Shown: one piece after another, positions 1-10,544 of the stretch | Layout: each line of letters begins with the position of its first letter | Position numbering within the stretch: the first letter of the stretch is position 1 | Origin: a virus | Taxonomy: Duplodnaviria; Heunggongvirae; Uroviricota; Caudoviricetes | Strand: one strand, 5' to 3' | Virus record (IMG/VR): IMGVR_UViG_2579778804_000012 | Coordinates: 1-10,544 of that record | Length of the DNA: 10,544 nucleotides | Position numbers and translations under genes: made by a program | Notes under the pieces: model-generated | Databases searched by the model: none | Told to the model about the DNA's origin: nothing | Seen by the model: the letters and a program-made list of their open reading frames with translations, nothing else

Positions 1-1218
1 ATGAACAAACTGAGCGATACCTTGCTAAGGAAACTTCATGGTAAGCCAGCGGAGAAAAACACGTTTTATAGCGATGGCGGAAATCTGAGCGTGAAATATT
101 TAACATCAGGGAAATTAACCTGGTATTTCACTTACAGGGCAGGAACGGGAAGAGAGACACGACCGGAACGTATTAAGCTGGGAAATTATCCTGATCTGAG
201 CCTGAAAGCAGCCAGGGAAAAAGCCGCCCAGTGTCGCGCATGGCTGGCGGAGGGGAAAAATCCACGCCATGAGATGAATTACGCCGTACAGGAAGCGTTA
301 AAGCCGGTAACGGTTGGCGATGCGCTCACCTACTGGCTTGAGTCGTACGTAAAGGAAAACCGCGTGGATTATATCGCCCTGAAAAGGCGACTTAATAATC
401 ACGTAATACAGTACATTGGCGCTATGCCGCTGGATAAATGCGAGCTACGGCACTGGCTGGCCTGTTTTGACCAGGTGGCAAAGCGAACACCTGTTACTGC
501 CGGATTCGTGCTACAGACATGCAAGCAGGCGCTTAAGTTCTGCCGGAGGCGGCGCTTTGCAATCAGCAACGTTCTCGATGATCTGAACGTGGCGGACGTT
601 GGGAAAAAACCGGATATAAGCGAACGTGTCTTAAGCACCAAAGAACTGGGCGAGTTATTGCAGGCGCTGGATAAAAAAATATTTTCTCCTTACTACGTCG
701 CGTTAATCCGCCTCCTGATTGTCTTCGGAGCCAGGACGGTAGAACTGAGGTTATCGGAGATCAGCGAGTGGGATTTTACCGAAATGCTATGGACCGTTCC
801 GAAGGAGCACAGCAAAACGAAGGTTGCAATATTCCGGCCCATACCGGAAGCGATCCTGCCGTTCGTCACGCGGCTGGTGGACCAGAACAGGCACACGGGC
901 TTATTACTGGGGGAAGTGAAACAGGAGGCTAGCGTATCGCAGTACGGCAGATTAGCGCACAGGAGGCTAAAACACCCTCAATGGTCATTGCATGACATCC
1001 GGCGCACCTTTACAACCATGCTGAACGATTTAGGCGTTGATCCTCACGTCGTGGAGCAGCTTACAGGCCACCAGATGCCAGGAATGCAACGCGTGTACAA
1101 CCATTCCCGCTATATTGATGCGAAACGCAATGCGCTTGATATGTGGGTGGAGCGGTTGGAGATACTGGCGGGAACACATGAAAACGTAACCACGCTACCA
1201 GTAACCAGAATAAAATAA
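1..1218 (+). CDS. int: tyrosine integrase, P4-type (N-terminal arm-binding-like domain plus catalytic domain)
   Basis: 405-aa ORF. N-terminus LSDTLLRKL..GKPAEK..YSDGGNLSVKY..W.F.YR...LGNYPDLSLKAAREKA matches the P4-family integrase N-terminal pattern; C-terminus HDIRRTF....GHQMPGMQRVYNHSRY fits the H-x-x-R and catalytic Tyr region. Window begins exactly at its ATG. Confidence 0.9.
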   Translation: MNKLSDTLLRKLHGKPAEKNTFYSDGGNLSVKYLTSGKLTWYFTYRAGTGRETRPERIKLGNYPDLSLKAAREKAAQCRAWLAEGKNPRHEMNYAVQEALKPVTVGDALTYWLESYVKENRVDYIALKRRLNNHVIQYIGAMPLDKCELRHWLACFDQVAKRTPVTAGFVLQTCKQALKFCRRRRFAISNVLDDLNVADVGKKPDISERVLSTKELGELLQALDKKIFSPYYVALIRLLIVFGARTVELRLSEISEWDFTEMLWTVPKEHSKTKVAIFRPIPEAILPFVTRLVDQNRHTGLLLGEVKQEASVSQYGRLAHRRLKHPQWSLHDIRRTFTTMLNDLGVDPHVVEQLTGHQMPGMQRVYNHSRYIDAKRNALDMWVERLEILAGTHENVTTLPVTRIK

Positions 1219-1235
1219 TTTTTTTCGTGTTTTTT

Positions 1236-1251
1236 CAGTATGCGCATACTG
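1236..1251. promoter_or_regulatory. perfect 16-bp palindrome CAGTATGCGCATACTG just after the int stop; candidate protein-binding site or hairpin
   Basis: Self-complementary 16-mer read directly; preceded by a T-run (1221-1235). Confidence 0.4.
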
Positions 1252-1260
1252 GATAAGTGC

Positions 1261-1310
1261 ACAGATACAACGTGAAACAATGTGCAACAACGTGACACAA
1301 TCACGAACAA
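1261..1310. repeat. five tandem 10-bp phased units (acagatACAA cgtgaaACAA tgtgcaACAA cgtgacACAA tcacgaACAA); candidate DNA-binding array
   Basis: Exact 10-bp periodicity with invariant ACAA ends and GTGA/GTGC cores, read directly. Confidence 0.6.
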
Positions 1311-1401
1311 GAGGCCAAAAAGAATACAGATTTGTAAGCTACTGATTTTTAATGCTCAGCTGGTTTTTTATACATTAGTGAATTACGCGTTAAAGTGTGC
1401 G

Positions 1402-1438
1402 AAAAAAGGCATAAAACAAGATTTTATGCCTTTGTATT
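1402..1438. terminator. hairpin terminator candidate between int and alpA (stem GGCATAAAA/TTTTATGCC, A-run before, T-rich after)
   Basis: 9-bp perfect inverted repeat 1408-1416/1422-1430, loop caaga, followed by tttgtatt. Confidence 0.5.
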
Positions 1439-1592
1439 AACATGAATTTAAATGATTTTATCCTGATTATTCCTCTTTCTGTAAACCATGCGACACCAAC
1501 ATTTGCCAACTCTGAATCATCCTGACACAATCAGACACATCCCAACGCAATAGAACACGAAATAACTCTTTAAGAAACGAAAGGGGGCAATA

Positions 1593-1781
1593 GTGTTAAG
1601 CACTGATCGGTTTATACGTGAAAAAGAATGCGAAAAGCTAACAGGCCTTAGCCGCTCATGCCGCTACCGCCTGGAAAAGGCCGGACAATTCCCATCACGT
1701 CGTAAACTTGGTGGGCGTTCTGTTGGCTGGTCTTTATCTGAGGTTTTGGCCTGGAAGGATAGCTGCAAGGCAGTTCACTAA
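1593..1781 (+). CDS. alpA: AlpA-family transcriptional regulator / possible excisionase (GTG start)
   Basis: 62-aa ORF; LTGLSRSCRYRLEKAGQFPSRRKLGGRSVGWSLSEVLAWK matches the AlpA signature (TG.SR...Y......FP..RKLG.RSVGW...E...W). RBS AAGGGGG at 1581-1587. Confidence 0.8.
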   Translation: MLSTDRFIREKECEKLTGLSRSCRYRLEKAGQFPSRRKLGGRSVGWSLSEVLAWKDSCKAVH

Positions 1782-1920
1782 AAAGACTGGCGGCACACAG
1801 TCGCCACACATCCACTAATACAGAGATATAACTATGAAGATTGAATATGCGCCCGAACGTGGGCGGGGATTCGTTCGCCCTGGTGAAACTGAAAAACAAC
1901 AAAATTGGGGTTTTTCAGGC

Positions 1921-1950
1921 ATAAAAAAAGCGGCCCCGATATGGAGCCGC
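1921..1950 (-). terminator. candidate intrinsic terminator for the minus-strand small-gene operon (stem GCGGC/GCCGC, U-run on minus strand)
   Basis: Stem 1930-1934/1946-1950 with 11-nt loop; on the minus strand it is followed by the complement of the A-run at 1922-1929. About 75 nt below the stop of the 2025..2228 gene. Confidence 0.4.
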
Positions 1951-2024
1951 CTTTCTGAACAATTAACCTGCTGCGCCTTATGTGTATGTGATCCCAAACA
2001 TAAGCACGGGAATGATAGCCGCTA

Positions 2025-2228
2025 TCAGGCTGGTGGGCAATTACCTTGCTTGTTGGGGCCGTATTGTGCTGCCATTTTCATCCGTTCAGAACGTGAATAT
2101 TTTTTTAGAAACTCATCAAGGACAAAAGCGCATGGAGCGAATCTTTCTGATTCATGCTCGAGCGCCATATTTTCGTGCTCTCTGTTCGTTTTTTGCGATG
2201 GTGTATTGGTTGATTCTTTGTTGGTCAT
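2025..2228 (-). CDS. small acidic protein of unknown function (67 aa), paralog of the 2686..2913 gene
   Basis: Starts MTN.., shares FVLDEFLKKY with FALEDFVDKY in the paralog; identical 43-bp upstream element; RBS AGGT 8 nt upstream. Confidence 0.5.
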   Translation of the reverse strand: MTNKESTNTPSQKTNREHENMALEHESERFAPCAFVLDEFLKKYSRSERMKMAAQYGPNKQGNCPPA

Positions 2229-2237
2229 TGTGTGTAC

Positions 2238-2280
2238 CTGTAAAGCAATGCGCCGGAGTTCCTCACGCCACGGCGCTGAT
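2238..2280. repeat. 43-bp element, copy a (100% identical to 2923-2965), intergenic upstream of the MTN-type gene
   Basis: ctgtaaagcaatgcgccggagttcctcacgccacggcgctgat read identically at both sites; contains inverted repeat GCGCCG..CGGCGC. Confidence 0.9.
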
Positions 2281-2285
2281 GTTTT

Positions 2286-2465
2286 TTATTCTTTGGGTTC
2301 AATACCGCGTTGCTGTAATTCTTTTCGGATTATTCGTTTTATCCAAGCTGCTAAAGAGTCATCACCGTCTTGTTGTTGTGCTTTTTCCATCTTTTCCCGT
2401 AAGTCAGGATCTAAACGGAACTGGAAAGGAGGATTACCACGCCTTTCATTTTTGTGTGTTGACAC
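2286..2465 (-). CDS. Arc/MetJ-type ribbon-helix-helix DNA-binding protein candidate (59 aa from GTG; 34 aa if ATG at 2390)
   Basis: Minus-strand translation ..RRGNPPFQFRLDPDLREKMEKAQQQDGDDSLAAWIKRIIRKELQQRGIEPKE fits the Arc-like strand-helix-helix pattern; RBS GGGGTG 8 nt upstream of the GTG. Absent from the supplied ORF track (non-ATG start, under 60 aa). Confidence 0.45.
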   Translation of the reverse strand: MSTHKNERRGNPPFQFRLDPDLREKMEKAQQQDGDDSLAAWIKRIIRKELQQRGIEPKE

Positions 2466-2486
2466 GTCAATTACACCCCATATAAT
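2459..2486 (+). promoter_or_regulatory. consensus sigma70-type promoter: TTGACA (2459-2464), 16-bp spacer, TATAAT (2481-2486)
   Basis: Both hexamers are perfect consensus with near-optimal spacing; it overlaps the start region of the minus-strand Arc-like gene. Confidence 0.55.
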
Positions 2487-2492
2487 GTGTTT

Positions 2493-2508
2493 ATGTGTAT
2501 ATACACAT
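2493..2508. promoter_or_regulatory. perfect 16-bp palindrome ATGTGTATATACACAT immediately downstream of the -10; candidate operator
   Basis: Self-complementary 16-mer read directly, at about +1 to +20 of the promoter above. Confidence 0.5.
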
Positions 2509-2530
2509 TACACACAACTAGCACAAAAAA

Positions 2531-2599
2531 CAACGCCCCGCAGTGATGGGAACACATACGGGGCGTCTAACCAAACCATTAATTGAGGTAACGATTATG
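2531..2599. ncRNA. structured element copy 1: 7-bp GC stem CGCCCCG/CGGGGCG with 18-nt loop, conserved tail TCTAACCAAACC, RBS and ATG GCT; leader RNA on plus strand and/or terminator on minus strand
   Basis: Stem 2534-2540/2559-2565. On the minus strand it is followed by TTGTTTTTTGTG (terminator-like). On the plus strand it precedes GAGG, then ATG at 2597. Homologous to 3398-3466. Confidence 0.4.
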
Positions 2600-2685
2600 G
2601 CTATAAAAGAGCATAGCTTACTCTTTATACACACACAAACGCCCCGGAAACGGAATAATCCGTTTCATAGTTCGGTTTTGTGCAC

Positions 2686-2913
2686 TCATCCTGGCGGTCG
2701 GTTTTTGCCGGATTTAAGCCGCCGTGGGTATTTATCGACAAAATCTTCAAGGGCAAATTTTTCTGGTGGCACTAAGCGCGGCGCTGGTGGTGGTATTTTT
2801 GTTCTGGTTAGTTCTTCCTCAAGTCTGGCGCAGGCTTCTGACTGCCTTTGCCGGATGATTTCATCATCTTGCGTTTGCGTGTCTTGTATTGGTGATAGTG
2901 TGTTGTTGGTCAT
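2686..2913 (-). CDS. small acidic/proline-rich protein of unknown function (75 aa), paralog of the 2025..2228 gene
   Basis: Starts MTNN.., contains FALEDFVDKY; preceded by the 43-bp element copy b. Confidence 0.55.
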   Translation of the reverse strand: MTNNTLSPIQDTQTQDDEIIRQRQSEACARLEEELTRTKIPPPAPRLVPPEKFALEDFVDKYPRRLKSGKNRPPG

Positions 2914-2922
2914 GTTACTGCC

Positions 2923-2965
2923 CTGTAAAGCAATGCGCCGGAGTTCCTCACGCCACGGCGCTGAT
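2923..2965. repeat. 43-bp element, copy b (100% identical to 2238-2280)
   Basis: Identical 43-mer between the RHH gene stop (2971) and the downstream gene start (2913). Confidence 0.9.
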
Positions 2966-2970
2966 AGTGA

Positions 2971-3277
2971 TTATTCTGATTCTTTGGCCTTGCGGCGCTG
3001 GAGTTCTTCGCGTGCGATGGCGATAAGTTGCCCGAGTTCTTCCGTAGCTTTAATACCAATTTTTTCCACTTGCGCCAATGCATCGAGAGAAGAAATCAGA
3101 GGATTTTCACTGCTTCCTTCTGCCTGGCGGCGGGCGATCTCCCCGCGCATGGCGGTTACTATGAATCCGGCGTTGCTTTCGCCGTCCAGTTTTACGGATT
3201 CCATGCCATCAAAAGCATCATGTGGGATACGAATTGAAATCTGTTTTGATTTGTCGTTGATAGTGTTTTTTGCCATG
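2971..3277 (-). CDS. ribbon-helix-helix (Arc/CopG-like) DNA-binding protein candidate, 101 aa from the MAKNT start
   Basis: KQISIRIPHDAFDGMESVKLDGESNAGFIVTAMRGEIARRQ fits the RHH pattern. Start moved from the track ATG at 3315 to the ATG at 3277, which sits 6 nt after RBS AGGAGA. C-terminus resembles the Arc-like paralog (IAREELQRRKAKESE vs IRKELQQRGIEPKE). Confidence 0.6.
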
Positions 3278-3298
3278 TGCATTCTCCTAAACAAAAGA

Positions 3299-3376
3299 TG
3301 TGATTCAGTATACACAAAAAAGAATCACAAAAAACACTTGACCTGTGATTCAGTTGAATTTAATTTAAATCACACC
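3299..3376. promoter_or_regulatory. operator-like cluster: TGTGATTCAGT direct repeats (3299-3309, 3344-3354) plus inverted half-sites GAATCACA (3322-3329) and AATCACAC (3368-3375); weak candidate promoter TTGACC at 3338-3343
   Basis: Repeated motif in both orientations in the divergent region between the RHH gene and the Icd-like gene. Confidence 0.4.
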
Positions 3377-3397
3377 TCAGTAAGAGGATGTAAACGA

Positions 3398-3463
3398 CAA
3401 CGCCCCGAACTGTTTGCGGCAGTAGCGGGGCGTCTAACCAAACCGTTAACAGGAGTAACGATT
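3398..3463 (+). ncRNA. structured leader copy 2: stem CGCCCCG/CGGGGCG (3401-3407/3426-3432), 18-nt loop, tail TCTAACCAAACC, RBS AGGAG, then ATG GCT; candidate c4/CI-like regulatory RNA or 5'-UTR element
   Basis: Same stem, tail and RBS/start block as copy 1 but a different loop; no U-run on the minus strand, so a plus-strand role is favoured here. Confidence 0.4.
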
Positions 3464-3664
3464 ATGGCTGGAACACAGCATACCCCACGTCTGGCGCACA
3501 CACAAACTGCCTTTGTGTGGCGTTTTCTGGCCCTGAGTGCCGGAGAATCTCAAATCATCCACGTAACCGCCTGGACGGAACGCGAAGCGCGTAACCGTTG
3601 CCCGTCCGGTTGTGTTGCTGTATTCGCTGCCCGTATTCGCCAGGGGGAAACCTATGCACAATAA
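3464..3664 (+). CDS. small protein (66 aa) in the position of Icd-like (host cell division inhibitor-like) proteins of P4-type elements; identity tentative
   Basis: MAGTQHTPRLAHTQTAFVWRFLALSAGESQ...; good RBS; follows the structured leader. The first 15 aa are homologous to the truncated start at 2597 (MAIKEHSLLFIHTQT). Confidence 0.5.
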   Translation: MAGTQHTPRLAHTQTAFVWRFLALSAGESQIIHVTAWTEREARNRCPSGCVAVFAARIRQGETYAQ

Positions 3665-3884
3665 AACCACACCGGACGCAGCAGAAGAAGCAATGCAAAT
3701 ACTGATACGTGCGCTCGTTGATGTTACCCACATGGTGGAGAGCATGGAGAGAAAATCACAGTCGGAGCACGACAAAAGAAAACTTAAAACAATAAAAATA
3801 ATTGCCAAAAACTCGCTGATAAAAGTTACAGACATCCTTAATGAGGACATTAAAAGAATAAGGGAGAAAATTTGTGATGCATAA
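3654..3884 (+). CDS. hypothetical small protein (76 aa), AT-rich gene
   Basis: ATG at 3654 with RBS AGGGGG 6 nt upstream; overlaps the Icd-like stop; lysine-rich, low GC. Confidence 0.5.
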   Translation: MHNKTTPDAAEEAMQILIRALVDVTHMVESMERKSQSEHDKRKLKTIKIIAKNSLIKVTDILNEDIKRIREKICDA

Positions 3885-4104
3885 AATCCCTTTTGAAGTA
3901 TTAATCCACTCTGAAAACGCATTAATTAAAGCACGCGAAATGAATGCGTTGTTAATTAAATTAATTGAAGTGCCGGAAGGTGGTGAAGAATCAGGTGTAT
4001 TAATGTTTGCAGCCATTCAGACATTACTATCGCCTGTTATTGATGAACTGGATAAGGCAATGGCAATTCACGAGAATAATAACTCGCCCCACACCGGAGA
4101 ATAA
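3874..4104 (+). CDS. hypothetical small protein (about 75 aa), AT-rich gene
   Basis: GTG 3874 / ATG 3877 after RBS AAGGGAG; start overlaps the stop of the previous gene. Confidence 0.5.
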   Translation: MMHKIPFEVLIHSENALIKAREMNALLIKLIEVPEGGEESGVLMFAAIQTLLSPVIDELDKAMAIHENNNSPHTGE

Positions 4105-4109
4105 AAATA

Positions 4110-4409
4110 ATGAAACTTAAATATTCTGGCTTAACTGCCAGTGGCAACACTCACCCTAAATTTACGCGCGGTGATATTTACCGCGACCAGTACGGCGGCA
4201 CGGTAATGATTAAGGGCGTGGCGGGACGGTGCGTAACTTACCGCCGTGAAGGTTACGAATATGATTGCGTGATGCCTGTTTATCAGTTCCGGCGTGATTT
4301 TTCTCTGGTACAGACCGCGCCGCATAACGTGCCCACCAGCAACGCCAGGGCACGGGCAAACATCCAGAAGCTGAAAACCATGATTAACGGATTCAGGGGT
4401 AAAAAATGA
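4110..4409 (+). CDS. hypothetical protein (99 aa), translationally coupled to the helicase gene
   Basis: RBS GGAGA 9 nt upstream; its stop overlaps the helicase ATG (ATGA). Confidence 0.6.
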   Translation: MKLKYSGLTASGNTHPKFTRGDIYRDQYGGTVMIKGVAGRCVTYRREGYEYDCVMPVYQFRRDFSLVQTAPHNVPTSNARARANIQKLKTMINGFRGKK

Positions 4410-5815
4410 AACTGGCACCGAACGTAAAACTATTACCGAAAGACAAATACACCGATGCGATTATTTTTGCGGGTATTGATGCTCACTCATTCGCAGAGCA
4501 TTACATCATTGCACAGGCCAAAAAAGCAGGCGATCCAGTCCCTCCCGTTTATCTGGGGCGTTATCAGTTAAGCGAACTGGATAACCTCCAGATTGTTGAT
4601 GATGGGCGATACAGGGCGACGGTGATACGCGCCGGAAATATTGAAGAGCCGCAGCTGTTAACCATCGCCACGAAACTGGCGATCGCCGGAGTCCAGGAGG
4701 CGCGGCTACTTTCTGAAAATTTCGAATTGCTGGAGGAATGGAGCGACCAGCTTCCACGGCTTAGGGAGGCATGGGAACGCGGGGAAAGCCTGGTCATGAA
4801 AAAAATCCCCCAGCGAAAAACCACGCTACCGATGAGCGTTGGATCTACCGGATACGACACACAGCTTGATTACGTGGTAAAGGGGATTATTCCGGCATCG
4901 TCGCTTTGCAGCATATACGGGGCGAGCGGTTCCTATAAATCATTCCTTGCCGGATCGTGGGCGTGTCACGTTTCCACGGGCCGCCAGTGGGGAGGCCGCA
5001 GGGTGGCGCATGGCGCTGTTCTCTATGTGGTTGGTGAAGGCGGTATCGGCGTTCCGCGTCGTGTAAAAGCCTGGGAGGTTGTGCACGGTGAGCAGGTGAA
5101 AAATCTGTATCTGGTAAACCGTCCCATCTTTCCGGCGGTCCCGCTTGATGTTGATGAAATGGTTATCGCTGCCCGTCAGGTGGAGCGGGAAACGGGTAAA
5201 CCTGTACGCATGATTATTCTGGATACGCTGGCGCGTTGCTTTGGTGGGAATGATGAAAATGATTCCCGTGATATGGGGGCGTTTATCCGTGGTTGTGACG
5301 AACTGAAACGACGCACAGGGGCCACGGTGCTGGTGGTTCACCATTCCGGCAAGGATGAGACGAAAGGCGCGCGCGGTTCCAGTGCATTTCGTGCATCACT
5401 GGATGCTGAATACCGGATACGCAGGGAGGACGCAGGAAGCGAAGCGCTGGTTATCTCATGCACCAAAATGAAGGACGCGGAGGAACTCAAAGAAGCCGCA
5501 TATGACTTACGCGTGGTGGAGCTGTTTACCGACGCTGACGGGGAGTTAATCACGTCGCTGGTGGTGGTGGATAAGCCGCGCCCTCCCGTTGAACTGGAAC
5601 GCATCGAGGAGGCAGGCAACAAGACGGAAAACCATACCGCACTATGGGGGTGCATCCGTTCACGCACACAGAACGGCGACAAGTGCACGATCCCGCTGTT
5701 ACGTGATGACATGAAACGGCTTGGGTATGACGTGAAAAATATGCGGCGATGGTTAGCCAAACTGGAAAAAGACGCCGTGATTTACATTGATGGTGATGAT
5801 GTAGGACCACTGTAA
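4406..5815 (+). CDS. RepA-like replicative helicase / RecA-fold AAA ATPase with C-terminal DNA-binding region
   Basis: 469 aa; Walker A GASGSYKS, Walker B-like VRMIILDTLAR, then VLVVHHSGKD; an iteron array lies immediately downstream. Confidence 0.85.
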   Translation: MKLAPNVKLLPKDKYTDAIIFAGIDAHSFAEHYIIAQAKKAGDPVPPVYLGRYQLSELDNLQIVDDGRYRATVIRAGNIEEPQLLTIATKLAIAGVQEARLLSENFELLEEWSDQLPRLREAWERGESLVMKKIPQRKTTLPMSVGSTGYDTQLDYVVKGIIPASSLCSIYGASGSYKSFLAGSWACHVSTGRQWGGRRVAHGAVLYVVGEGGIGVPRRVKAWEVVHGEQVKNLYLVNRPIFPAVPLDVDEMVIAARQVERETGKPVRMIILDTLARCFGGNDENDSRDMGAFIRGCDELKRRTGATVLVVHHSGKDETKGARGSSAFRASLDAEYRIRREDAGSEALVISCTKMKDAEELKEAAYDLRVVELFTDADGELITSLVVVDKPRPPVELERIEEAGNKTENHTALWGCIRSRTQNGDKCTIPLLRDDMKRLGYDVKNMRRWLAKLEKDAVIYIDGDDVGPL

Positions 5816-6015
5816 AAAGTGAGTAGCAAAAGTGAGTAATGGTGAGGTTTTTACAAAATATTAACACGATTACTCACTTTCTCACCTGTATACATGCTCA
5901 AAAGTGAGGAGTAAAAAAATCCTTATGAAACACACACATAAAGCATCAAAAAATATCAAGTGAGACGAAGCGAGACGCTTTAAAAAGTGAGGTGTAAAAG
6001 TGAGCATGAGTGAGG
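5816..6015. repeat. iteron array, putative replication origin: at least 9 copies of (A)AGTGAG in both orientations with AT-rich spacers
   Basis: GTGAG at 5819, 5832, 5842, 5904, 5960, 5987, 6000, 6010; inverted CTCAC at 5874 and 5881; AT-rich stretches 5850-5870 and 5911-5957. Confidence 0.6.
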
Positions 6016-6269
6016 AGATAACCAAAATGCGCAGAGACAGAACAGAGCCGAAATATAAAGCGTTAGACATGACAGAGCACGCCTTAAAGGTGGCAATCAG
6101 GGTAATAGACCGCCACGCGGGGGAAGGATACGCGAAGGAGCATCCCGAACTGATAAGCGCATTCATGACCACAGCGGCGGCAAACTTTGCCACGCTGACA
6201 GAGCGGGAGATTGCGGAAGCTGAACAGGTGACAACCATCAACGTTAAAAACGTAGAGGTGGAATCATGA
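6000..6269 (+). CDS. hypothetical protein (about 87-89 aa)
   Basis: GTG 6000 or ATG 6006 after GAGG; its stop overlaps the ssb-like start. Confidence 0.55.
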   Translation: MSMSEEITKMRRDRTEPKYKALDMTEHALKVAIRVIDRHAGEGYAKEHPELISAFMTTAAANFATLTEREIAEAEQVTTINVKNVEVES

Positions 6270-6688
6270 CAGCACAGATAGCGGCTTACGGGCGGCTGGT
6301 GGCTGACCCACAGTTAAAGACCACCAGCAAGGGCACACAAATGACGATGGCGAGTATGGCTGTCCCCCTGCCGTGCAGCCAGGCAGATGACGGAACGGCT
6401 ACGATGTGGTTATCCGTCCTGGCGTTTGGCAGACAGGCCGACGCACTGGCAAAACACCGCAAAGGCGAGCTGGTGAGCGTGGCGGGTAACATGCAGGTAA
6501 GCCAGTGGACAGGCCAGAACGGCGAAACGCGGCAGGGCTGGCAGGTTATCGCAGACAGCGTAATCAGTGCGAGAACGGCGCGACCGGGCGGCAAAAAAGG
6601 CCAGCAGGGGCAGGCTACTGACGCACTGAACAGGGCAAAACAACAGGCGGGGAATGATGATCCGTACGGGGATAACATACCGTTTTAA
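6266..6688 (+). CDS. ssb: single-stranded DNA-binding protein (SSB-like, short form)
   Basis: 140 aa; N-terminal OB-fold-like region, Gly/Gln-rich linker, and C-terminal acidic tip DDPYGDNIPF resembling the SSB D-I-P-F tail. Confidence 0.7.
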   Translation: MTAQIAAYGRLVADPQLKTTSKGTQMTMASMAVPLPCSQADDGTATMWLSVLAFGRQADALAKHRKGELVSVAGNMQVSQWTGQNGETRQGWQVIADSVISARTARPGGKKGQQGQATDALNRAKQQAGNDDPYGDNIPF

Positions 6689-6702
6689 GCAACGAGTGAC
6701 AG

Positions 6703-6727
6703 AAGCCGGAGAAATCCGGCTTTTTTG
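6703..6727 (+). terminator. rho-independent terminator after ssb (GCCGGA gaaa TCCGGC + TTTTTT)
   Basis: 6-bp GC stem, 4-nt loop, 6-T run, read directly. Confidence 0.7.
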
Positions 6728-6732
6728 TAGGT

Positions 6733-6880
6733 ACTCCTGGTGGGGGTGCCTGTCCACGGGGCGGCGGGGCGCGGAAAAAGGCGCATTTTTTGATTTTTAT
6801 GGCACCATCACCACCACTATAAGTTATTGATATATTGAGGAATAAAAATTTTTAGTGTCGAATCAGGTTGTTTTTTGTTC
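6733..6880. repeat. ~150-bp element, copy A: GC-rich core CTCCTGGTGGGGGTGCCTGTCCACGGGGCGGCGGGGCGCGGAAAAAGGCGCATTTTTT, His-codon-like CATCACCACCAC tract, ending GGTTGTTTTTTGTTC
   Basis: Aligns block by block with 9270-9420; both copies sit immediately after an intrinsic terminator. Confidence 0.7.
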
Positions 6881-7154
6881 ATCACTGGAGCGTTCCCGAA
6901 AGCATTTACAAAAAAACAGGCGCAAAAAAAGCGCCCCCGATTGCTGTTACCGGAGGCGCTTTTACACGACAAAGGAGTTTTTATCGCCAGGATGACGAGT
7001 CTTAATATTGCTTCAATAGCAAAAATGCGTCAATGGCTTTGCCTCTCTGAGAATAATCAGAAAAATCATAATCTGATTTTATGGTAGAAAATGATTTATC
7101 TATTACTTTTGTCGATCAATAATGATGCCCGTTAATCAAAACGGAGGCGGATTT

Positions 7155-7349
7155 ATGCCAGAGAACAACACCAGAAAGCCGGATAAAAGTGCCACGGTAC
7201 ACATAGACGCCGGAACTATGGAGAAGATCGAACGCTATCAGCAGTTCATCAAAGATAATCACCCGGGTATGCCAGTGCCCACGAAAGGACAAATCACACG
7301 CAGCGCGGTTGAATACTGGTACAGGGCAACGTTAGGAGCCTGGCTATGA
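7155..7349 (+). CDS. small protein (64 aa), possible RHH-type regulator, translationally coupled to the capsid gene
   Basis: ATG 7155 is 7 nt after RBS GGAGG (the track ORF starts earlier at 7122); its stop overlaps the ATG at 7346. Confidence 0.5.
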   Translation: MPENNTRKPDKSATVHIDAGTMEKIERYQQFIKDNHPGMPVPTKGQITRSAVEYWYRATLGAWL

Positions 7350-9235
7350 AAACATGGTTTTCCATTAAGGCTATGGCAGATGTTGTACATGTGCGCATTT
7401 ATGACGAGATCGGCGGGTACGGTGTAAAGGCATCGGCACTTACTGACGAGATCAACGCGTGCGGTAATGTGTCTGAAATCCATCTGAGCATTCATTCACC
7501 TGGTGGCGACATCTTTGAAGGGCTGGCTATCTATAACGCTCTGAAAAATCATCCGGCAAAAAAAATCGTACACATTGAAGGCATGGCGGCTTCTATGGCG
7601 TCGTTTATTGCCATGTGTGGAGATCACATCGTTATGCCTGAAAACGCGATGATGATGATACATGCCCCCCGTGGTGTTACTGCCGGAGTGTCGGGCGACG
7701 TTCGCCGCTTTGCTGATCTGATGGACAAGCTGGGCGACACGATGGCAGAAACCTATGCCGGAAGAACGGGCAGGAGCAAACAGGAGATCACCTCCATGAT
7801 GGAGGCGGAAACCTGGATGGATGGCAATGAGTGTAAGGCTAACGGCTTCGCAGATGAGGTTATACCCGCGATTACAGCAATGGCCCGAATTGAATCAAAA
7901 CGAATCGGAGATTTTTCAAATATGCCGGAAAAAATTAAAAGCATGATCAGCCAGAAAACTGGCAGTGGCGAACAGGAACGACTTAACGGAATCCGTGAAT
8001 TGTTTGGCACCTTCAACGGAAGATATAACGACCTGGCTATAAGTTGTCTTGCGGATTCAGAATGTAGCGTTGAGAATGCACGCGAACGCCTTTTACTCGC
8101 TATGGGTAAAGAATCAACGCCAACAAACAAAACCACCCCCGCAAATCTTTACTACGCGTACACGGATAACGGCAATATAACCGGCGATGCCATGCGTCAG
8201 GGGCTTAATGCGCGTCTTGGTCACGAACGGGCCGAACGCGGTAATCCTTACGCCATGATGAGCCTTTTCGATATGGCACAGGCATCATTAACCCATCGTG
8301 GTATAAGCACGGGCAGCTACAGCACACGCTCGCAGATAGTAAACGCGGCATTCACCCACAGCAGCAGCGATTTTACCGATATCCTTGCTGGTGGCGCTGA
8401 AAAATCAGTGCTTGCAGGCTGGGAGCACAGCGGCGAAACATTCCGCCAGTGGACGAAAAAAGGTTCCCTTTCAAACTTCCGGGAAGCCCGCCGCGTTGGT
8501 ATGAATGGCTTCTCAACGTTAAACAAAGTGCCGGAAGGGGCAGAATATAAATACATCACCACCAGCGATCGCGGTGAACCCATCGCGCTGGCTACTTACG
8601 GGAATATTTTCAGCATTACCCGCCAGGCGATAATCAATGATGACCTTGATCAGTTATCAACGGTGCCAATGGCTATGGGCCGTGCAGCATCAAGAACGGT
8701 GGGAAATCTGGTTAATCTGGTGCTTACAGGCAACGTAAAACTTTCTGACGGAATAGCGCTGTTTGACAAAAAACACAGCAACCTGATTGAAGCAGGACTG
8801 ACAACACCGGGACTTAGTGCAGCACGTCACCTGATGCGCACACAGAAGGACAAAAATGGCGAAGTGCTGAATATTGCGCCTAAATTCCTTTTAGTTCCGG
8901 CAGCACTGGAAGATCGCGCGTTGCAGATGATTAACTCAACCGCACCTTTCGGGGCTGATAAAAACAGCGGGATCTTTAACCCGTATCACAAGCTACTTGA
9001 TATCATCGTCGATCCCCGCCTTGATGATATCAGCGAAAAACAATGGTACATGCTTTCCGCACAGGGAACGGACACAATCGAGGTGGCTTATCTTGATGGC
9101 AATGACGAACCTTACCTTGAACAGCAGGAAGGCTTTATCGTTGACGGCGTGGCCTGGAAAGTCCGTATTGATGCAGGTGTGGCAGCTCTGGATTATCGCG
9201 GTATGGTCAAATCAGGCGGTACCGATTCACTATGA
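7346..9235 (+). CDS. prohead protease (ClpP/S14-like) fused to a probable major capsid protein, with a scaffold-like linker
   Basis: 629 aa; N-terminal 170 aa IHSPGGDIFEGLAIYNALKNH...HIEGMAASMASFIAMCGDHIVMPENAMMMIHAP matches the phage ClpP-like head-maturation protease pattern; the C-terminal ~400 aa is inferred to be capsid from size and context, not from a recognised motif. Confidence 0.75.
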   Translation: MKTWFSIKAMADVVHVRIYDEIGGYGVKASALTDEINACGNVSEIHLSIHSPGGDIFEGLAIYNALKNHPAKKIVHIEGMAASMASFIAMCGDHIVMPENAMMMIHAPRGVTAGVSGDVRRFADLMDKLGDTMAETYAGRTGRSKQEITSMMEAETWMDGNECKANGFADEVIPAITAMARIESKRIGDFSNMPEKIKSMISQKTGSGEQERLNGIRELFGTFNGRYNDLAISCLADSECSVENARERLLLAMGKESTPTNKTTPANLYYAYTDNGNITGDAMRQGLNARLGHERAERGNPYAMMSLFDMAQASLTHRGISTGSYSTRSQIVNAAFTHSSSDFTDILAGGAEKSVLAGWEHSGETFRQWTKKGSLSNFREARRVGMNGFSTLNKVPEGAEYKYITTSDRGEPIALATYGNIFSITRQAIINDDLDQLSTVPMAMGRAASRTVGNLVNLVLTGNVKLSDGIALFDKKHSNLIEAGLTTPGLSAARHLMRTQKDKNGEVLNIAPKFLLVPAALEDRALQMINSTAPFGADKNSGIFNPYHKLLDIIVDPRLDDISEKQWYMLSAQGTDTIEVAYLDGNDEPYLEQQEGFIVDGVAWKVRIDAGVAALDYRGMVKSGGTDSL

Positions 9236-9240
9236 CAACA

Positions 9241-9264
9241 AGGCGGCACCAGCCGCCTTTTTTG
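9241..9264 (+). terminator. rho-independent terminator after the capsid gene (GGCGGC acca GCCGCC + TTTTTT)
   Basis: 6-bp GC stem, 4-nt loop, 6-T run. Confidence 0.7.
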
Positions 9265-9269
9265 CGGGT

Positions 9270-9420
9270 CCTCCTGGTGGGGTGGGCCTGAACACGGGGC
9301 GGGCGGCGCGGAAAAAAGCGCATTTTTGTGATTTTATCGTCATCATCATCATGTGTGTAACCTATTGTTTTTAATGTGGTTGATGCAAAAAAGATGATGA
9401 AGAAGGTTATTTTTTGTTCG
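9270..9420. repeat. ~150-bp element, copy B (homolog of 6733-6880)
   Basis: CTCCTGGTGGGGTGGGCCTGAACACGGGGCGGGCGGCGCGGAAAAAAGCGCATTTTTG, then CATCATCATCAT, then GGTTATTTTTTGTTCG. Confidence 0.7.
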
Positions 9421-9492
9421 ACATCTTTTAGCGTGACAGATTCTTTACAAAAAATCTGAGCTTGTTTTCTTCACCAGCGCGATGGGGGCACA

Positions 9493-9774
9493 ATGACAGA
9501 AGCCGAAATACTGGGATTAATCCGCCGCGTCGCCGGAATCAGCCAGCAGGTTGACGAACAGGCCACGCAGCCGGACAGCATGACCGCAGATAATTATGTG
9601 CGTGTAGTGGTGGAGGTGATGCGCGGTGATGGTATCCAGCTTAATGATGTGGATATGCGCAACATACGAACCAGAGTCCTTGAGTTGCTGGCATACCGTC
9701 GCCGCGTGGAGATGTATCGGGAGAAGGAGAAAATCACGTACCACTGGAAGAAGCCGGAGCGGTTACGGCGGTAA
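9493..9774 (+). CDS. hypothetical protein (93 aa), downstream of the capsid gene
   Basis: ATG with GGGGG 4 nt upstream; charged, arginine-rich C-terminus; function not recognisable. Confidence 0.55.
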   Translation: MTEAEILGLIRRVAGISQQVDEQATQPDSMTADNYVRVVVEVMRGDGIQLNDVDMRNIRTRVLELLAYRRRVEMYREKEKITYHWKKPERLRR

Positions 9775-9888
9775 CTTGTTGATTAAAAGGCGGCTCAATT
9801 CTGAGCTGGGTAGCTGACGGCGGTAACTGTTTTATATTCCCGATAGCGCAAAAATGCGCGGTCGGGCAGAATGACCACCACCTCAATC

Positions 9889-9930
9889 GTGACGGAGAGT
9901 GACAACCAGTGACACACCGTGACAAAAAGA
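9889..9930. repeat. four tandem 10-bp phased GTGAC units (GTGACggaga GTGACaacca GTGACacacc GTGACaaaaa)
   Basis: Exact 10-bp phasing read directly; same motif family as the 1261-1310 array. Confidence 0.6.
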
Positions 9931-9975
9931 CGGTTTAACCGTTCATTAAAAATCGACGTGATTTTGTGCTATCAG

Positions 9976-10000
9976 GATGACGTGGCCAACGTCATTTTTT
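9976..10000 (+). terminator. intrinsic terminator candidate (GATGACGT ggcca ACGTCAT + T-run)
   Basis: 7-8-bp stem followed by TTTTTT at 9995-10000. Confidence 0.5.
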
Positions 10001-10391
10001 AGCGAAAAATTCTGATTAAGGTCACTGGCTGAATGGTCATAATGACCACGCAGACCATCGAGGCAACCATAGCGATCATCGTTACGGTTGGAGCTTTTCC
10101 GCCATTGGTGGAAAAGGTGCACATCTGGATCATCATTACGGTGATCAAGGGTATGTAAAACCCACCAGCCTGATTAAATGTTAACCGGAAAAAAAATCCG
10201 GTAGCCCCGTTATGGGAATCCCCATATCGACAGCAACGCCCCCTTAAAATTACCCGCCTTTATATTTCTTGTGCCTATTTGTTCCACGTTGTTTCATACA
10301 GTGCGCCGAACGGTGTAGTCACTGGTGTAGTTATTTTGAGTTTTTTTGCACTTCGGGCTTAATTGAAAATATAATTAAATCAATATGTTAT

Positions 10392-10544
10392 TCAAAATAG
10401 GTTATATATAACAGCAATAAATAATGCGAGAATAAACGGCACGATGATCTCGGCGGCAAAACGGATACCGCAGAGAATAATGACCAGCATTCCCAACATA
10501 ATGACGATTTTTAGGCCATTGAGCGTGATGATCGGCTTTGCCAT
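10392..10544 (-). pseudogene. 5' fragment of a membrane transporter gene (51 codons, 46-aa hydrophobic N-terminus); TqsA/PerM-like from memory, unverified
   Basis: Minus-strand ATG at the window edge encodes [46 protein letters not shown], then YNLF and a stop at 10392-10394; far shorter than a full transporter. Confidence 0.45.

What the first reader, a model, noticed from the sequence alone, without database searches (positions are those of the whole stretch)
1..10406. Compact satellite-like island with an unusual gene set: int, alpA, helicase, SSB and a lone protease-capsid fusion
The order int, alpA, regulatory region, replication module, capsid gene follows phage-inducible chromosomal island logic. 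But the only virion gene is a ClpP-like protease fused to a capsid-like domain, with no terminase, portal or connector in about 10 kb, and replication uses a RepA-like helicase plus its own SSB rather than a P4 alpha-type primase. This does not fit P4-like, classical PICI (terS only) or capsid-forming PICI (full head module) cleanly. It may be an undescribed satellite type that supplies one capsid subunit to remodel helper capsids, or a decayed capsid-forming island.
Basis: partly seen in the sequence, partly recalled or inferred. Interest (0 to 1): 0.75.

Follow-up and report, generated by a model that had tools for sequence, protein, structure and literature searches.

The report
E. coli PICI with fused capsid gene
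This is a 10.6-kb phage satellite of an already described E. coli family (a PICI inserted in the tqsA gene), and only its capsid module is unusual: a fused protease-capsid gene flanked by copies of the DNA-packaging signal of Shiga-toxin-type lambdoid phages.

Summary
The claim that it fits no known satellite type does not hold.

**Identity.** The island is 10,603 bp, bounded by ATAACAGCA repeats inside tqsA. This is the same att site as the published reference PICIs EcCI042 and EcCIK1516. It shares with EcCI042 the integrase, AlpA, DUF4222 protein, RepA-type helicase, SSB and terminal 93-aa gene (71-98% aa identity).

**What differs.** Only the late module differs. EcCI042 has lambda E-like capsid, D-like decoration and Rpp/Nu1-like genes. 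This island has orf75 plus a ClpP-scaffold-capsid fusion (NCBIfam NF045540).

**The cassette.**
- It also sits on PICIs with other integrases and replicases, and is found in at least 143 of 5,426 complete E. coli genomes.
- PICI fusions form their own clade, at most 52% identical to any sequenced phage.
- They are under purifying selection.
- Their linker is about 30 aa shorter than in phage fusions.

**New here.** Two cos-like sites flank the cassette. They match the cos regions of two groups of lambdoid Stx-type phages (86-90% identity), all of which build heads from the same kind of fusion protein.

**Verdict.** A new variant of a known kind. What the capsid homologue does is untested.

The parts
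1..1218 (+). Tyrosine integrase. The RefSeq start is 12 nt left of the window. It is a P4-type Arm-DNA-bind_3 integrase.
   Evidence: Pfam. It is 95% aa identical to the EcCI042 integrase and 100% to that of the sibling island in strain 2011C-3911.
1593..1781 (+). AlpA-family regulator/excisionase.
   Evidence: Pfam Phage_AlpA 5e-18. 98% aa identical to EcCI042 AlpA.
2025..3276 (-). Leftward regulatory genes in two tandem, diverged cassettes. Cassette 1 is 2025-2228 plus 2286-2465 (Arc/YlcI-like). Cassette 2 is 2686-2913 plus 2971-3276 (YlcI/YnfO family).
   Evidence: PHROG Arc-like repressor. NCBIfam YlcI_YnfO_N 4e-18 and 5e-4. Direct repeats D1 and D2. RefSeq CDS table.
3464..3664 (+). Icd-like host cell-division inhibitor, the first gene of the rightward operon.
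   Evidence: NCBIfam phage_ICD_like 5e-18.
3654..4409 (+). Three small genes: 3654-3884, 3877-4104, and the DUF4222 gene at 4110-4409.
   Evidence: PHROGs of unknown function. Pfam DUF4222 2e-23. Conserved in EcCI042 and other PICIs.
4406..5815 (+). RepA-family (AAA_25) replicative helicase/initiator.
   Evidence: Pfam AAA_25 1e-43. phrog_2850 5e-223. 80% aa identical to the EcCI042 RepA-family protein.
5816..6004 (.). Putative replication origin: six exact AAAGTGAG iterons in two sets flanking an A/T-rich stretch, immediately 3' of repA.
   Evidence: 6 matches against 0.37 expected; 0 of 200 shuffles reach 6. Sequence. The layout matches the Gram-negative PICI ori described in PMC6092414.
6018..6688 (+). 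83-aa protein (phrog_1231) and single-stranded DNA-binding protein (6266-6688).
   Evidence: Pfam SSB 3.7e-16. The same gene pair follows the replicase in EcCI042 and in PICIs at other sites.
6703..6888 (+). An intrinsic terminator hairpin (6703-6726), then cos-like site A (6722-6888). The G/C-rich cosN-like core is at 6758-6774.
   Evidence: Hairpin -15.8 kcal/mol, z = -4.2. 90.5% identical over 167 nt (E = 2e-56) to the region just upstream of terS in phages 1720a-02 and CP-1639.
7122..7349 (+). orf75, a small gene translationally coupled to the fusion gene. It travels with the fusion cassette. Function unknown.
   Evidence: phrog_4934 1.8e-51. 99% aa identical in L017 and 37% in the clade-2 PICIs. 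Absent from the helper-type phage late regions examined.
7346..9235 (+). ClpP-like prohead protease, scaffold-like linker and HK97-type major capsid protein fused in one 629-aa protein.
   Evidence: Pfam. NCBIfam NF045540 888.8 bits. PDB profile hits to Mu-GpT capsid proteins. The Ser (GMAASMAS) and His (MMIHAP) motifs are conserved. dN/dS 0.08-0.17. PICI-specific clade.
9240..9460 (+). An intrinsic terminator hairpin (9240-9263), then cos-like site B (9259-9460). The cosN-like core is at 9296-9311.
   Evidence: Hairpin -15.3 kcal/mol. 86-87% identical over about 200 nt (E = 2e-59) to the region upstream of terS in Stx2_95, VT1-Sakai and other Stx phages. The cosN core is identical to Stx2_95 and 1720a-02.
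9493..9774 (+). orf93, the terminal gene conserved in all E. coli PICIs examined. It starts where terS starts in the helper phage relative to cos. Function unknown.
   Evidence: phrog_1561 2.9e-56. 74-95% aa identical in L002, L004, L007, L010 and L017. No similarity to helper TerS or to any PDB chain.
10301..10416 (.). Right end of the island: GGTGTAGT repeats (10311-10335; a matching copy lies upstream of int) and the attR core ATAACAGCA (10408-10416).
   Evidence: The att core is identical to that listed for EcCI042 and EcCIK1516.
10401..10544 (-). 5' fragment of the host gene tqsA (AI-2 transporter), split by the island.
   Evidence: RefSeq annotation. Joining the two flanks gives an intact 344-aa TqsA.

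Best explanation
The element is a classical (not capsid-forming) Gram-negative phage-inducible chromosomal island of the EcCI042/EcCICFT073 family. It is integrated by a P4-type tyrosine integrase into the ATAACAGCA site inside tqsA.

**Life cycle, inferred from the family.** A helper phage triggers alpA. AlpA drives excision and the rightward operon. The island replicates from the iteron origin using its RepA-type helicase and its own SSB. The concatemers are cut and packaged by the helper's terminase.

**Shown here at sequence level.** The late module is a mobile cassette: terminator-cos A, orf75, ClpP-scaffold-capsid fusion, terminator-cos B. It replaces the lambda-type module (E-like capsid, D-like decoration, Nu1/Rpp-like protein) of its siblings. 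The two cos sites copy the cosQ-cosN-cosB regions of two groups of lambdoid Stx-type phages. Those phages have a DUF1441-type TerS and build their heads from the same kind of fusion protein.

**Inferred from that.** Those phages are the helpers. No Rpp or TerS of the island's own is needed, because the helper TerS should bind the island's cosB directly.

**Inferred and untested.** The fusion protein is a long-resident, PICI-specific paralogue of the helper's head protein. It most likely enters or perturbs helper procapsid assembly, with its shortened scaffold-like linker favouring smaller shells and/or poisoning helper heads. This would parallel Ccm of SaPIbov5.
For: **Identity.**
- Same att core and target gene as EcCI042 and EcCIK1516.
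- Protein identity to EcCI042: int 95%, AlpA 98%, DUF4222 95%, RepA 80%, SSB 71%, orf93 85%.
- A sibling island at the same site is 99.7% identical over 1-3001 and 92% over 3653-6829. Homology breaks at 6829, inside cos A, and resumes at 9480, just after cos B.
- Iteron origin 3' of repA.

**Cassette mobility.** The same orf75-fusion-cos-orf93 module occurs with other integrases and replicases: at cspD-clpS with RepA and at tRNA-Ile with DUF927 and no alpA. A second PICI clade of fusions (62% aa identity) sits on D5_N or RepA backbones. Prevalence is 143 and 184 of 5,426 complete genomes.

**Helper match.**
- cos B matches Stx2_95/VT1-Sakai at 86-87% over about 200 nt.
- cos A matches 1720a-02/CP-1639 at 90.5% over 167 nt.
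- Both matches lie immediately upstream of the phage terS.
- Those phages have terS (DUF1441)-terL-portal-fusion head modules.
- Helper-type fusion genes are present in 2,070 of 5,426 E. coli genomes.

**The fusion is functional and PICI-specific.**
- dN/dS is 0.08-0.17, against 0.16 between two phage copies.
- Catalytic motifs are kept.
- No phage in 50,697 records exceeds 52% identity to it, or 57% for clade 2.
- The PICI fusions are monophyletic in 200 of 200 NJ bootstraps.
- The linker is 119-122 aa in 8 of 8 PICI copies and 148-161 aa in 6 of 6 phage copies.
- In SaPIbov5, the scaffold-like domain of Ccm is 44 aa shorter than that of the helper capsid protein, and Ccm makes small capsids (PMC5052747).
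Against: - No experiment. Induction, helper identity, packaging and any capsid effect are all inferred.
[quoted passage not shown] PICI capsid genes are said not to be needed for transfer. The fusion may therefore have no role in size redirection.
- The cosN-like core of site A differs from every phage compared, being one base longer. Site A may not be cleavable.
- Siblings with the E/D/Nu1-type module carry a cos very like site B (87%). cos type and capsid type are therefore not strictly linked.
- I could not show a matching helper prophage in the source genome.
- At 52% identity, co-assembly with the helper protein is not assured.
Confidence: 0.75

Rival explanations
1. Half capsid-forming satellite. 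The single polyprotein gene supplies protease, scaffold and coat. The island would then build its own small shells on the helper's portal and borrow only portal, terminase, connectors and tails. This would be an intermediate between classical PICIs and cf-PICIs.
For: - One gene carries all three shell-building functions.
- It belongs to a PICI-only clade under purifying selection.
- The PICI copies have a consistently shorter linker.
- The 10.6-kb genome is about 23% of a 46-kb helper.
Against: - No portal or connector of its own, so it would need compatibility with the helper portal at only 52% coat identity.
- SaPIbov5 Ccm cannot form capsids alone.
- E. coli classical PICIs studied so far use full-size heads.
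- Four island copies (42.4 kb) would fill a helper-size head equally well.
Confidence: 0.2
2. The fusion protein serves only to interfere with phages, or has no role in the island's own transfer. It could be a dominant-negative or decoy head protein that damages helper or competitor capsid assembly. It could be dispensable, like c1499 of EcCICFT073.
For: - Capsid and decoration homologues of EcCICFT073 were dispensable for the phenotypes tested.
- PICI capsid genes are reported as not required for transfer.
- Strong divergence from helper proteins.
Against: - Purifying selection acts over the whole length, including the protease motifs.
- The gene is retained across many backbones.

Both points argue for a selected function, though neither says which one.
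Confidence: 0.3
3. A previously undescribed satellite family, distinct from P4-like, PICI and cf-PICI.
For: No TerS or Rpp, and the capsid gene is fused to a protease.
Against: - The backbone, att site and gene order are those of reference PICI EcCI042.
- Four of the five SatelliteFinder PICI core components are present.
- PICIs with a CLP_protease late gene are already in the literature.
Confidence: 0.04
4. A decayed capsid-forming PICI or a defective prophage remnant that has lost its terminase, portal and connectors.
For: It carries only two of the head functions that a cf-PICI has.
Against: - Precise att repeats and an exactly restorable target gene.
- No pseudogenes or unassigned coding space.
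- An identical compact cassette in at least 143 genomes and on several backbones.
- dN/dS of 0.08-0.17.
- cf-PICIs have separate protease and capsid genes together with HNH-terS-terL.
- PICI and cf-PICI capsid genes separate in phylogeny.
Confidence: 0.03

Closest known systems
EcCI042 and EcCIK1516, reference Gram-negative PICIs in tqsA (Fillol-Salom et al. 2018, PMC6092414)
   Same: - Same att core ATAACAGCA and same target gene.
- Same order: int, alpA, YlcI-like regulator, icd-like gene, DUF4222, RepA-family helicase, 83-aa gene, SSB, late module, orf93.
- 71-98% protein identity for the shared genes.
   Different: The late module. EcCI042 has a 68-aa gene, a lambda E-like capsid (351 aa), a D-like decoration protein, a 137-aa protein, a 144-aa Rpp-position protein and perC. 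The window has orf75 plus the ClpP-capsid fusion, and no Rpp/Nu1-like gene.
EcCICFT073, the prototype E. coli PICI (PMC6092414, PMC6739421)
   Same: - Gene order.
- alpA-controlled rightward operon.
- Iteron origin after the replicase.
- A capsid homologue.
- Two cos sites.
- Dependence on a cos-type lambdoid helper.
   Different: EcCICFT073 uses Rpp to retarget lambda TerS to a PICI-specific cosB. The window island has no Rpp, and its cosB regions are near-copies of those of candidate helpers. It also differs in att site (ycfD-phoQ) and in capsid family (Phage_cap_E).
SaPIbov5 and its Ccm protein (Carpena et al. 2016, PMC5052747)
   Same: - A satellite that carries the helper's cos site.
- It has no terminase gene.
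- It carries a single diverged HK97-fold homologue of the helper coat protein, with a shorter scaffold-like domain.
   Different: - Gram-positive, with an unrelated backbone.
- Ccm is not fused to a protease.
- Small-capsid formation is shown for Ccm and only conjectured here.
PICIs 'bearing a CLP_protease gene' at tRNA-Ile2 (HE-PICI study, PMC10111431)
   Same: The locus L017 type carries the same orf75-fusion-cos-orf93 cassette, with the fusion 98% aa identical.
   Different: Different integrase and att site, no alpA, and a DUF927 replicase. The paper reports the genotype only as a target for another satellite, not its function.
Capsid-forming PICIs such as EcCIEDL933 (bioRxiv 10.1101/2022.09.08.507074)
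   Same: int-alpA-replication front half, and they encode both a head protease and a major capsid protein.
   Different: cf-PICIs are about 15 kb. They also encode portal, head-tail connectors, HNH, TerS and TerL, and their protease and capsid are separate genes. None of these extra genes is present here.
Satellite phage P4
   Same: P4-type integrase, a Vis/AlpA-like regulator, an icd-like gene, the helper's cos, and an 11-kb size class.
   Different: No alpha primase-helicase, Sid, Psu, delta or epsilon. No CI/C4 RNA was detected by Rfam. The helper is lambdoid, not P2-like.

Membership tests
Gram-negative PICI (criteria of Fillol-Salom 2018; SatelliteFinder PICI model) | Integrase at the left end, with a specific att site of the kind used by PICIs | tested here: met
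   9-bp ATAACAGCA repeats in tqsA, identical to the att core of EcCI042 and EcCIK1516. Excision restores tqsA.
Gram-negative PICI (criteria of Fillol-Salom 2018; SatelliteFinder PICI model) | AlpA-family regulator next to int | tested here: met
   Pfam Phage_AlpA 5e-18.
Gram-negative PICI (criteria of Fillol-Salom 2018; SatelliteFinder PICI model) | Own replication initiator, with an iteron origin immediately 3' of it | tested here: met
   RepA/AAA_25 helicase, 80% identical to that of EcCI042. Six AAAGTGAG iterons at 5816-6004. Function not tested.
Gram-negative PICI (criteria of Fillol-Salom 2018; SatelliteFinder PICI model) | Capsid-morphogenesis homologue | tested here: met
   Fusion protein with Phage_capsid_4 7.8e-55 and NF045540 888.8 bits.
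Gram-negative PICI (criteria of Fillol-Salom 2018; SatelliteFinder PICI model) | Small-terminase homologue or Rpp | tested here: not met
   No Nu1, DUF1441 or Rpp-like ORF. This corresponds to a 4-of-5 'Type B' element in the SatelliteFinder scheme. SatelliteFinder itself was not run.
Gram-negative PICI (criteria of Fillol-Salom 2018; SatelliteFinder PICI model) | No tail, lysis, portal, connector or large-terminase genes; size about 1/4 to 1/3 of the helper | tested here: met
   16 genes in 10.6 kb, none with such domains. Candidate helpers are 45-47 kb.
Gram-negative PICI (criteria of Fillol-Salom 2018; SatelliteFinder PICI model) | Carries the helper's cos (or pac) signal | tested here: met
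   Two cos-like sites, 86-90% identical to the cos regions of Stx-type lambdoid phages. This is sequence-level evidence only.
Gram-negative PICI (criteria of Fillol-Salom 2018; SatelliteFinder PICI model) | Induction, replication and high-frequency transfer by a helper phage, with interference against it | not testable with these tools
   Requires induction and transduction experiments.
Capsid-forming PICI | Portal, head-tail adaptor/connector, HNH, TerS and TerL in addition to protease and capsid | tested here: not met
   None of these is present in the island or its flanks.
P4-like satellite | Alpha primase-helicase, Sid/Psu, delta/epsilon, CI RNA | tested here: not met
   No matching domains. 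No C4/isrK-type RNA in the Rfam scan.
NCBIfam NF045540, ClpP-like prohead protease/major capsid protein fusion | Whole-protein score above the curated cut-off of 475 bits | tested here: met
   888.8 bits.
Ccm-type capsid size redirection (SaPIbov5) | A satellite coat-protein homologue causes small capsids and blocks the helper | not testable with these tools
   Only the parallels were seen: a diverged coat homologue, a linker about 30 aa shorter, and carriage of the helper cos.

The most novel reading that the evidence does not exclude
The fused protease-scaffold-coat gene lets a classical PICI build satellite-only small procapsids from a single gene on the helper's portal. That would make these islands a missing intermediate between PICIs that only steal capsids and cf-PICIs that make their own. 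The two different cos sites would then let one island exploit two terminase specificity groups of Stx-type phages.
Probability: 0.2. Interest if true: 0.7.

Novelty: new variant of a known kind. Interest (0 to 1): 0.35.

Why it matters
**The open question.** What the capsid-protein homologues carried by most Gram-negative PICIs do is unresolved. In the prototype EcCICFT073 they had no phenotype with lambda.

**What this variant offers.**
- A cleaner test case: one gene encodes protease, scaffold-like linker and coat.
- The gene belongs to a satellite-only clade with a consistently shortened linker.
- The cos sites point to concrete candidate helpers, which are Shiga-toxin-converting and related lambdoid phages.

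**If the inference holds.**
- These islands would affect the production and spread of Stx phages in pathogenic E. coli.
- They would show that PICIs switch helper groups by swapping a small late cassette through recombination at cos.

**If it does not hold.** The element is simply one more member of a well-populated PICI family.

Tried and rejected
- **Exact lambda cosN.** GGGCGGCGACCT with up to 3 mismatches gave only chance-level hits: 6 found against 7.7 expected. The cos sites were found by their repeat structure and by comparison with phage DNA instead.
- **AlphaFold2 of the fusion.** With a 12-sequence alignment the model was unusable for the capsid domain (mean pLDDT 43, below 50 for residues 326-629), so no fold search was run. 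Capsid homology rests on Pfam, NCBIfam and a PDB profile hit.
- **Rfam scan.** No P4-type CI/C4/isrK RNA. The only hit was a sub-threshold BSnc120 match at 1369-1447, which I treat as chance.
- **orf93.** No similarity to helper TerS, to any PDB chain, or to Pfam or NCBIfam families. orf75 also has no Pfam or NCBIfam hit.
- **A helper prophage in the source genome.** The search tool shows one place per record. I could only see that NZ_CP027366.1 holds a second place matching the 7100-9480 query. At least some of the other genomes' partial matches lie over cos B. Its position and nature remain unknown.
- **Rejected readings.** Decayed cf-PICI, prophage remnant and P4-like element, for the reasons given under rival explanations.

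Full report
**1. What is in the window**

The window is identical, apart from one base at 10324, to E. coli 89-3156, NZ_CP027366.1 1825723-1836266 on the minus strand.

- a P4-type tyrosine integrase at 1-1218;
- AlpA at 1593-1781;
- a RepA-family AAA_25 helicase at 4406-5815;
- an SSB at 6266-6688;
- a 629-aa protein at 7346-9235.

The N-terminus of the 629-aa protein is a ClpP-like protease (Pfam CLP_protease 4.7e-33). Its C-terminus is a major capsid protein (Phage_capsid_4 7.8e-55, Mu-like_gpT 9e-9). It scores 888.8 bits against NCBIfam NF045540, 'ClpP-like prohead protease/major capsid protein fusion protein', whose cut-off is 475. A profile of the C-terminal 330 residues finds solved Mu-GpT-type capsid proteins in the PDB at E = 2.6e-8.

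Other genes:
- four small leftward genes (Arc/YlcI-like), arranged as a duplicated cassette;
- an icd-like gene;
- a DUF4222 gene;
- several small ORFs with PHROG families of unknown function.

No tRNA gene is present.

**2. Boundaries**

The island splits tqsA. ATAACAGCA occurs 187-195 nt left of the window and at 10408-10416. Deleting the 10,603 bp between the two copies restores an uninterrupted 344-aa TqsA.

The 8-kb flanks hold ordinary chromosomal genes (pntAB and ydgH on one side, mdtJI and ydgD on the other). No terminase or portal is there.

**3. It is a member of a described family**

Table S1 of Fillol-Salom et al. 2018 (PMC6092414) lists two reference PICIs, EcCI042 and EcCIK1516, in tqsA with the att core ATAACAGCA.

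The annotated EcCI042 region has this order: int, alpA, a YlcI/YnfO gene, an icd-like gene, small ORFs, DUF4222, a 'helicase RepA family protein', an 83-aa gene, SSB, a late module, and a final 93-aa gene.

Protein identities to the window are:

| Protein | Identity to EcCI042 |
|---|---|
| int | 95% |
| AlpA | 98% |
| DUF4222 | 95% |
| RepA | 80% |
| SSB | 71% |
| orf93 | 85% |

Six exact AAAGTGAG iterons lie directly after repA, at 5816-6004, in two sets around an A/T-rich stretch. The chance expectation is 0.37. This is the origin layout described for these elements.

A lone capsid homologue is also normal for the family:
- it is present in 21 of 29 reference Gram-negative PICIs;
- it is one of the five core components of the SatelliteFinder PICI model.

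**4. What differs: a swapped late cassette**

An island at the same site in strain 2011C-3911 is 99.7% identical over 1-3001 and 92% over 3653-6829. Homology then stops at 6829 and resumes at 9480.

In between, that sibling and EcCI042 carry four kinds of gene. They are a lambda E-like capsid (Phage_cap_E), a D-like decoration protein (HDPD), a hypothetical gene, and a Nu1-like 'terminase small subunit' or Rpp-position protein. The window has only orf75 and the fusion gene.

The same cassette recurs on other backbones:
- At cspD-clpS with a RepA replicase.
- At tRNA-Ile with a DUF927 replicase and no alpA. Here orf75 is 99% aa identical, the fusion 98% and orf93 95%. [quoted passage not shown]
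- A second clade of fusions (62-63% aa identity, 637-638 aa) is also always found in PICIs. These sit at cspD-clpS, yejM and tRNA-Ile sites, on either D5_N/DUF5906 or RepA replicases. The fusion is often followed by a DUF1441 TerS-like gene.

Among 5,426 complete E. coli genomes, 143 carry the window-type cassette and 184 the second type at 80% coverage or more.

**5.

The cassette is flanked by two copies of an element of about 170-200 nt. Each copy begins with an intrinsic-terminator hairpin.

- **Site B (9259-9460)** is 86-87% identical over about 200 nt (E = 2e-59) to the segment immediately upstream of terS in Stx2a, Stx2d and Stx1 phages such as Stx2_95 and VT1-Sakai. This covers the cosN-like core and about 125 nt beyond it.
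- **Site A (6722-6888)** is 90.5% identical (E = 2e-56) to the same position in phages 1720a-02 and CP-1639. Those two phages share cosN with Stx2_95 but differ in the downstream, TerS-binding part. Their TerS proteins are 77% identical to that of Stx2_95.

All these phages have the head module terS (DUF1441), terL, a small gene, portal, ClpP-capsid fusion. Helper-type fusion genes occur in 2,070 of 5,426 E. coli genomes.

From this I infer three things:
- the helpers are lambdoid phages with this head type;
- the island is packaged by direct cos mimicry and needs no Rpp;
- the two sites serve two terminase specificities.

Three caveats apply:
- the cosN-like core of site A is one base longer than in any phage compared;
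- siblings with the E/D-type module also carry a site-B-like cos;
- no experiment supports any of this.

**6. The fusion protein**

- **Distance from phages.** No phage in the INPHARED set is more than 52% identical to it, or more than 57% to the second PICI clade. The phage fusions are 65-79% identical to each other.
- **Own clade.** In a neighbour-joining tree the eight PICI sequences form one clade in 200 of 200 bootstraps. This was not a recent capture from a helper.
- **Selection.** dN/dS is 0.08-0.17 within the PICI clade and 0.16 between two phage copies. The ClpP serine and histidine motifs are conserved. The gene is functional, not decaying.
- **Shorter linker.** The region between the protease and coat domains is 119-122 aa in all eight PICI proteins and 148-161 aa in all six phage proteins. 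The PICI proteins lack a Pro/Ala/Thr-rich stretch.

The closest functional precedent is Ccm of SaPIbov5. It is a diverged HK97-fold coat homologue in a cos-carrying satellite. Its scaffold-like domain is 44 aa shorter than the helper's, and it produces small capsids (PMC5052747).

Against a simple transfer of that model, two results stand for EcCICFT073. Its capsid and decoration homologues had no detected role in interference with lambda, and that island is packaged in full-size heads. Size does not discriminate either. Four island copies (42.4 kb) are 92% of a 46.3-kb helper genome, and one copy would suit a much smaller shell.

**7. Verdict**

This is a classical Gram-negative PICI of the EcCI042 lineage, not a new satellite type and not a decayed capsid-forming island.

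Three things are not described in the papers I could search:
- the helper-matched late cassette bounded by two cos sites of different specificity;
- the existence of a PICI-only lineage of protease-coat fusions;
- the shortened linker of that lineage.

The role of the fusion protein is inferred, not shown.

**8. What failed**

An AlphaFold2 model from a shallow alignment was unusable for the coat domain. An Rfam scan found no P4-like immunity RNA. I could not locate a helper prophage in the source genome with the tools available.

Noticed in passing
window 2025-3507: The leftward regulatory unit is tandemly duplicated and has diverged. It consists of a small gene, an Arc/YlcI-like gene and the divergent promoter region. 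Repeats 2218-2292 / 2903-2977 are 85% identical and 2525-2640 / 3392-3507 are 72% identical. The second pair includes a degenerate extra copy of the icd 5' end near 2590-2640. EcCI042 has a single copy.
   Followed up: partly
L002 12785-12974; L015 8988-9176; L013 8305-8493: PICIs with the lambda-type late module (E-like capsid, D-like decoration, Nu1/Rpp-like protein) carry, just after ssb, a cos whose downstream (cosB) part is 86-87% identical to window site B. It therefore resembles the cos of DUF1441-TerS phages rather than lambda cosB. This might explain why the EcCICFT073 cosB looked unlike that of its laboratory helpers. It also hints that such islands could use two helper classes, one directly and one via Rpp.
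   Followed up: partly
window 9428-9495; L007 12030-12660: orf93 begins where terS begins in the helper phage relative to cos. In clade-2 PICIs a DUF1441 TerS-like gene (45-51% identical to helper TerS) sits between cos and orf93. The window type looks like a clean loss of that gene. L010 and L012 lack it too.
   Followed up: partly
window 10311-10335 and 30-69 nt left of the window (L001 7931-7970): Paired GGTGTAGT(C/T)A repeats lie near both ends of the island. They are possibly arm-type integrase binding sites. The same motif forms the att core reported for EcCIDI14.
   Followed up: no
L016 9310-9638; L017 8464-8550: In two other islands that carry the same fusion cassette, the ssb gene is truncated or annotated as a pseudogene while the fusion gene is intact. 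SSB is therefore less strictly kept than the capsid gene.
   Followed up: no
L006 13560-16828 (phage VT1-Sakai): The helper-type fusion gene of the Stx1 prophage VT1-Sakai is split by an IS629 insertion. That prophage could not make its own heads, yet it keeps a cos like window site B.
   Followed up: no
window 9171-9374: RefSeq annotates a 67-aa 'hypothetical protein' that overlaps the 3' end of the fusion gene, the terminator and cos site B. It is probably a spurious call.
   Followed up: no
window 10324: A single-base difference (G in the window, A in the RefSeq record) lies inside the right-end GGTGTAGT repeat.
   Followed up: no
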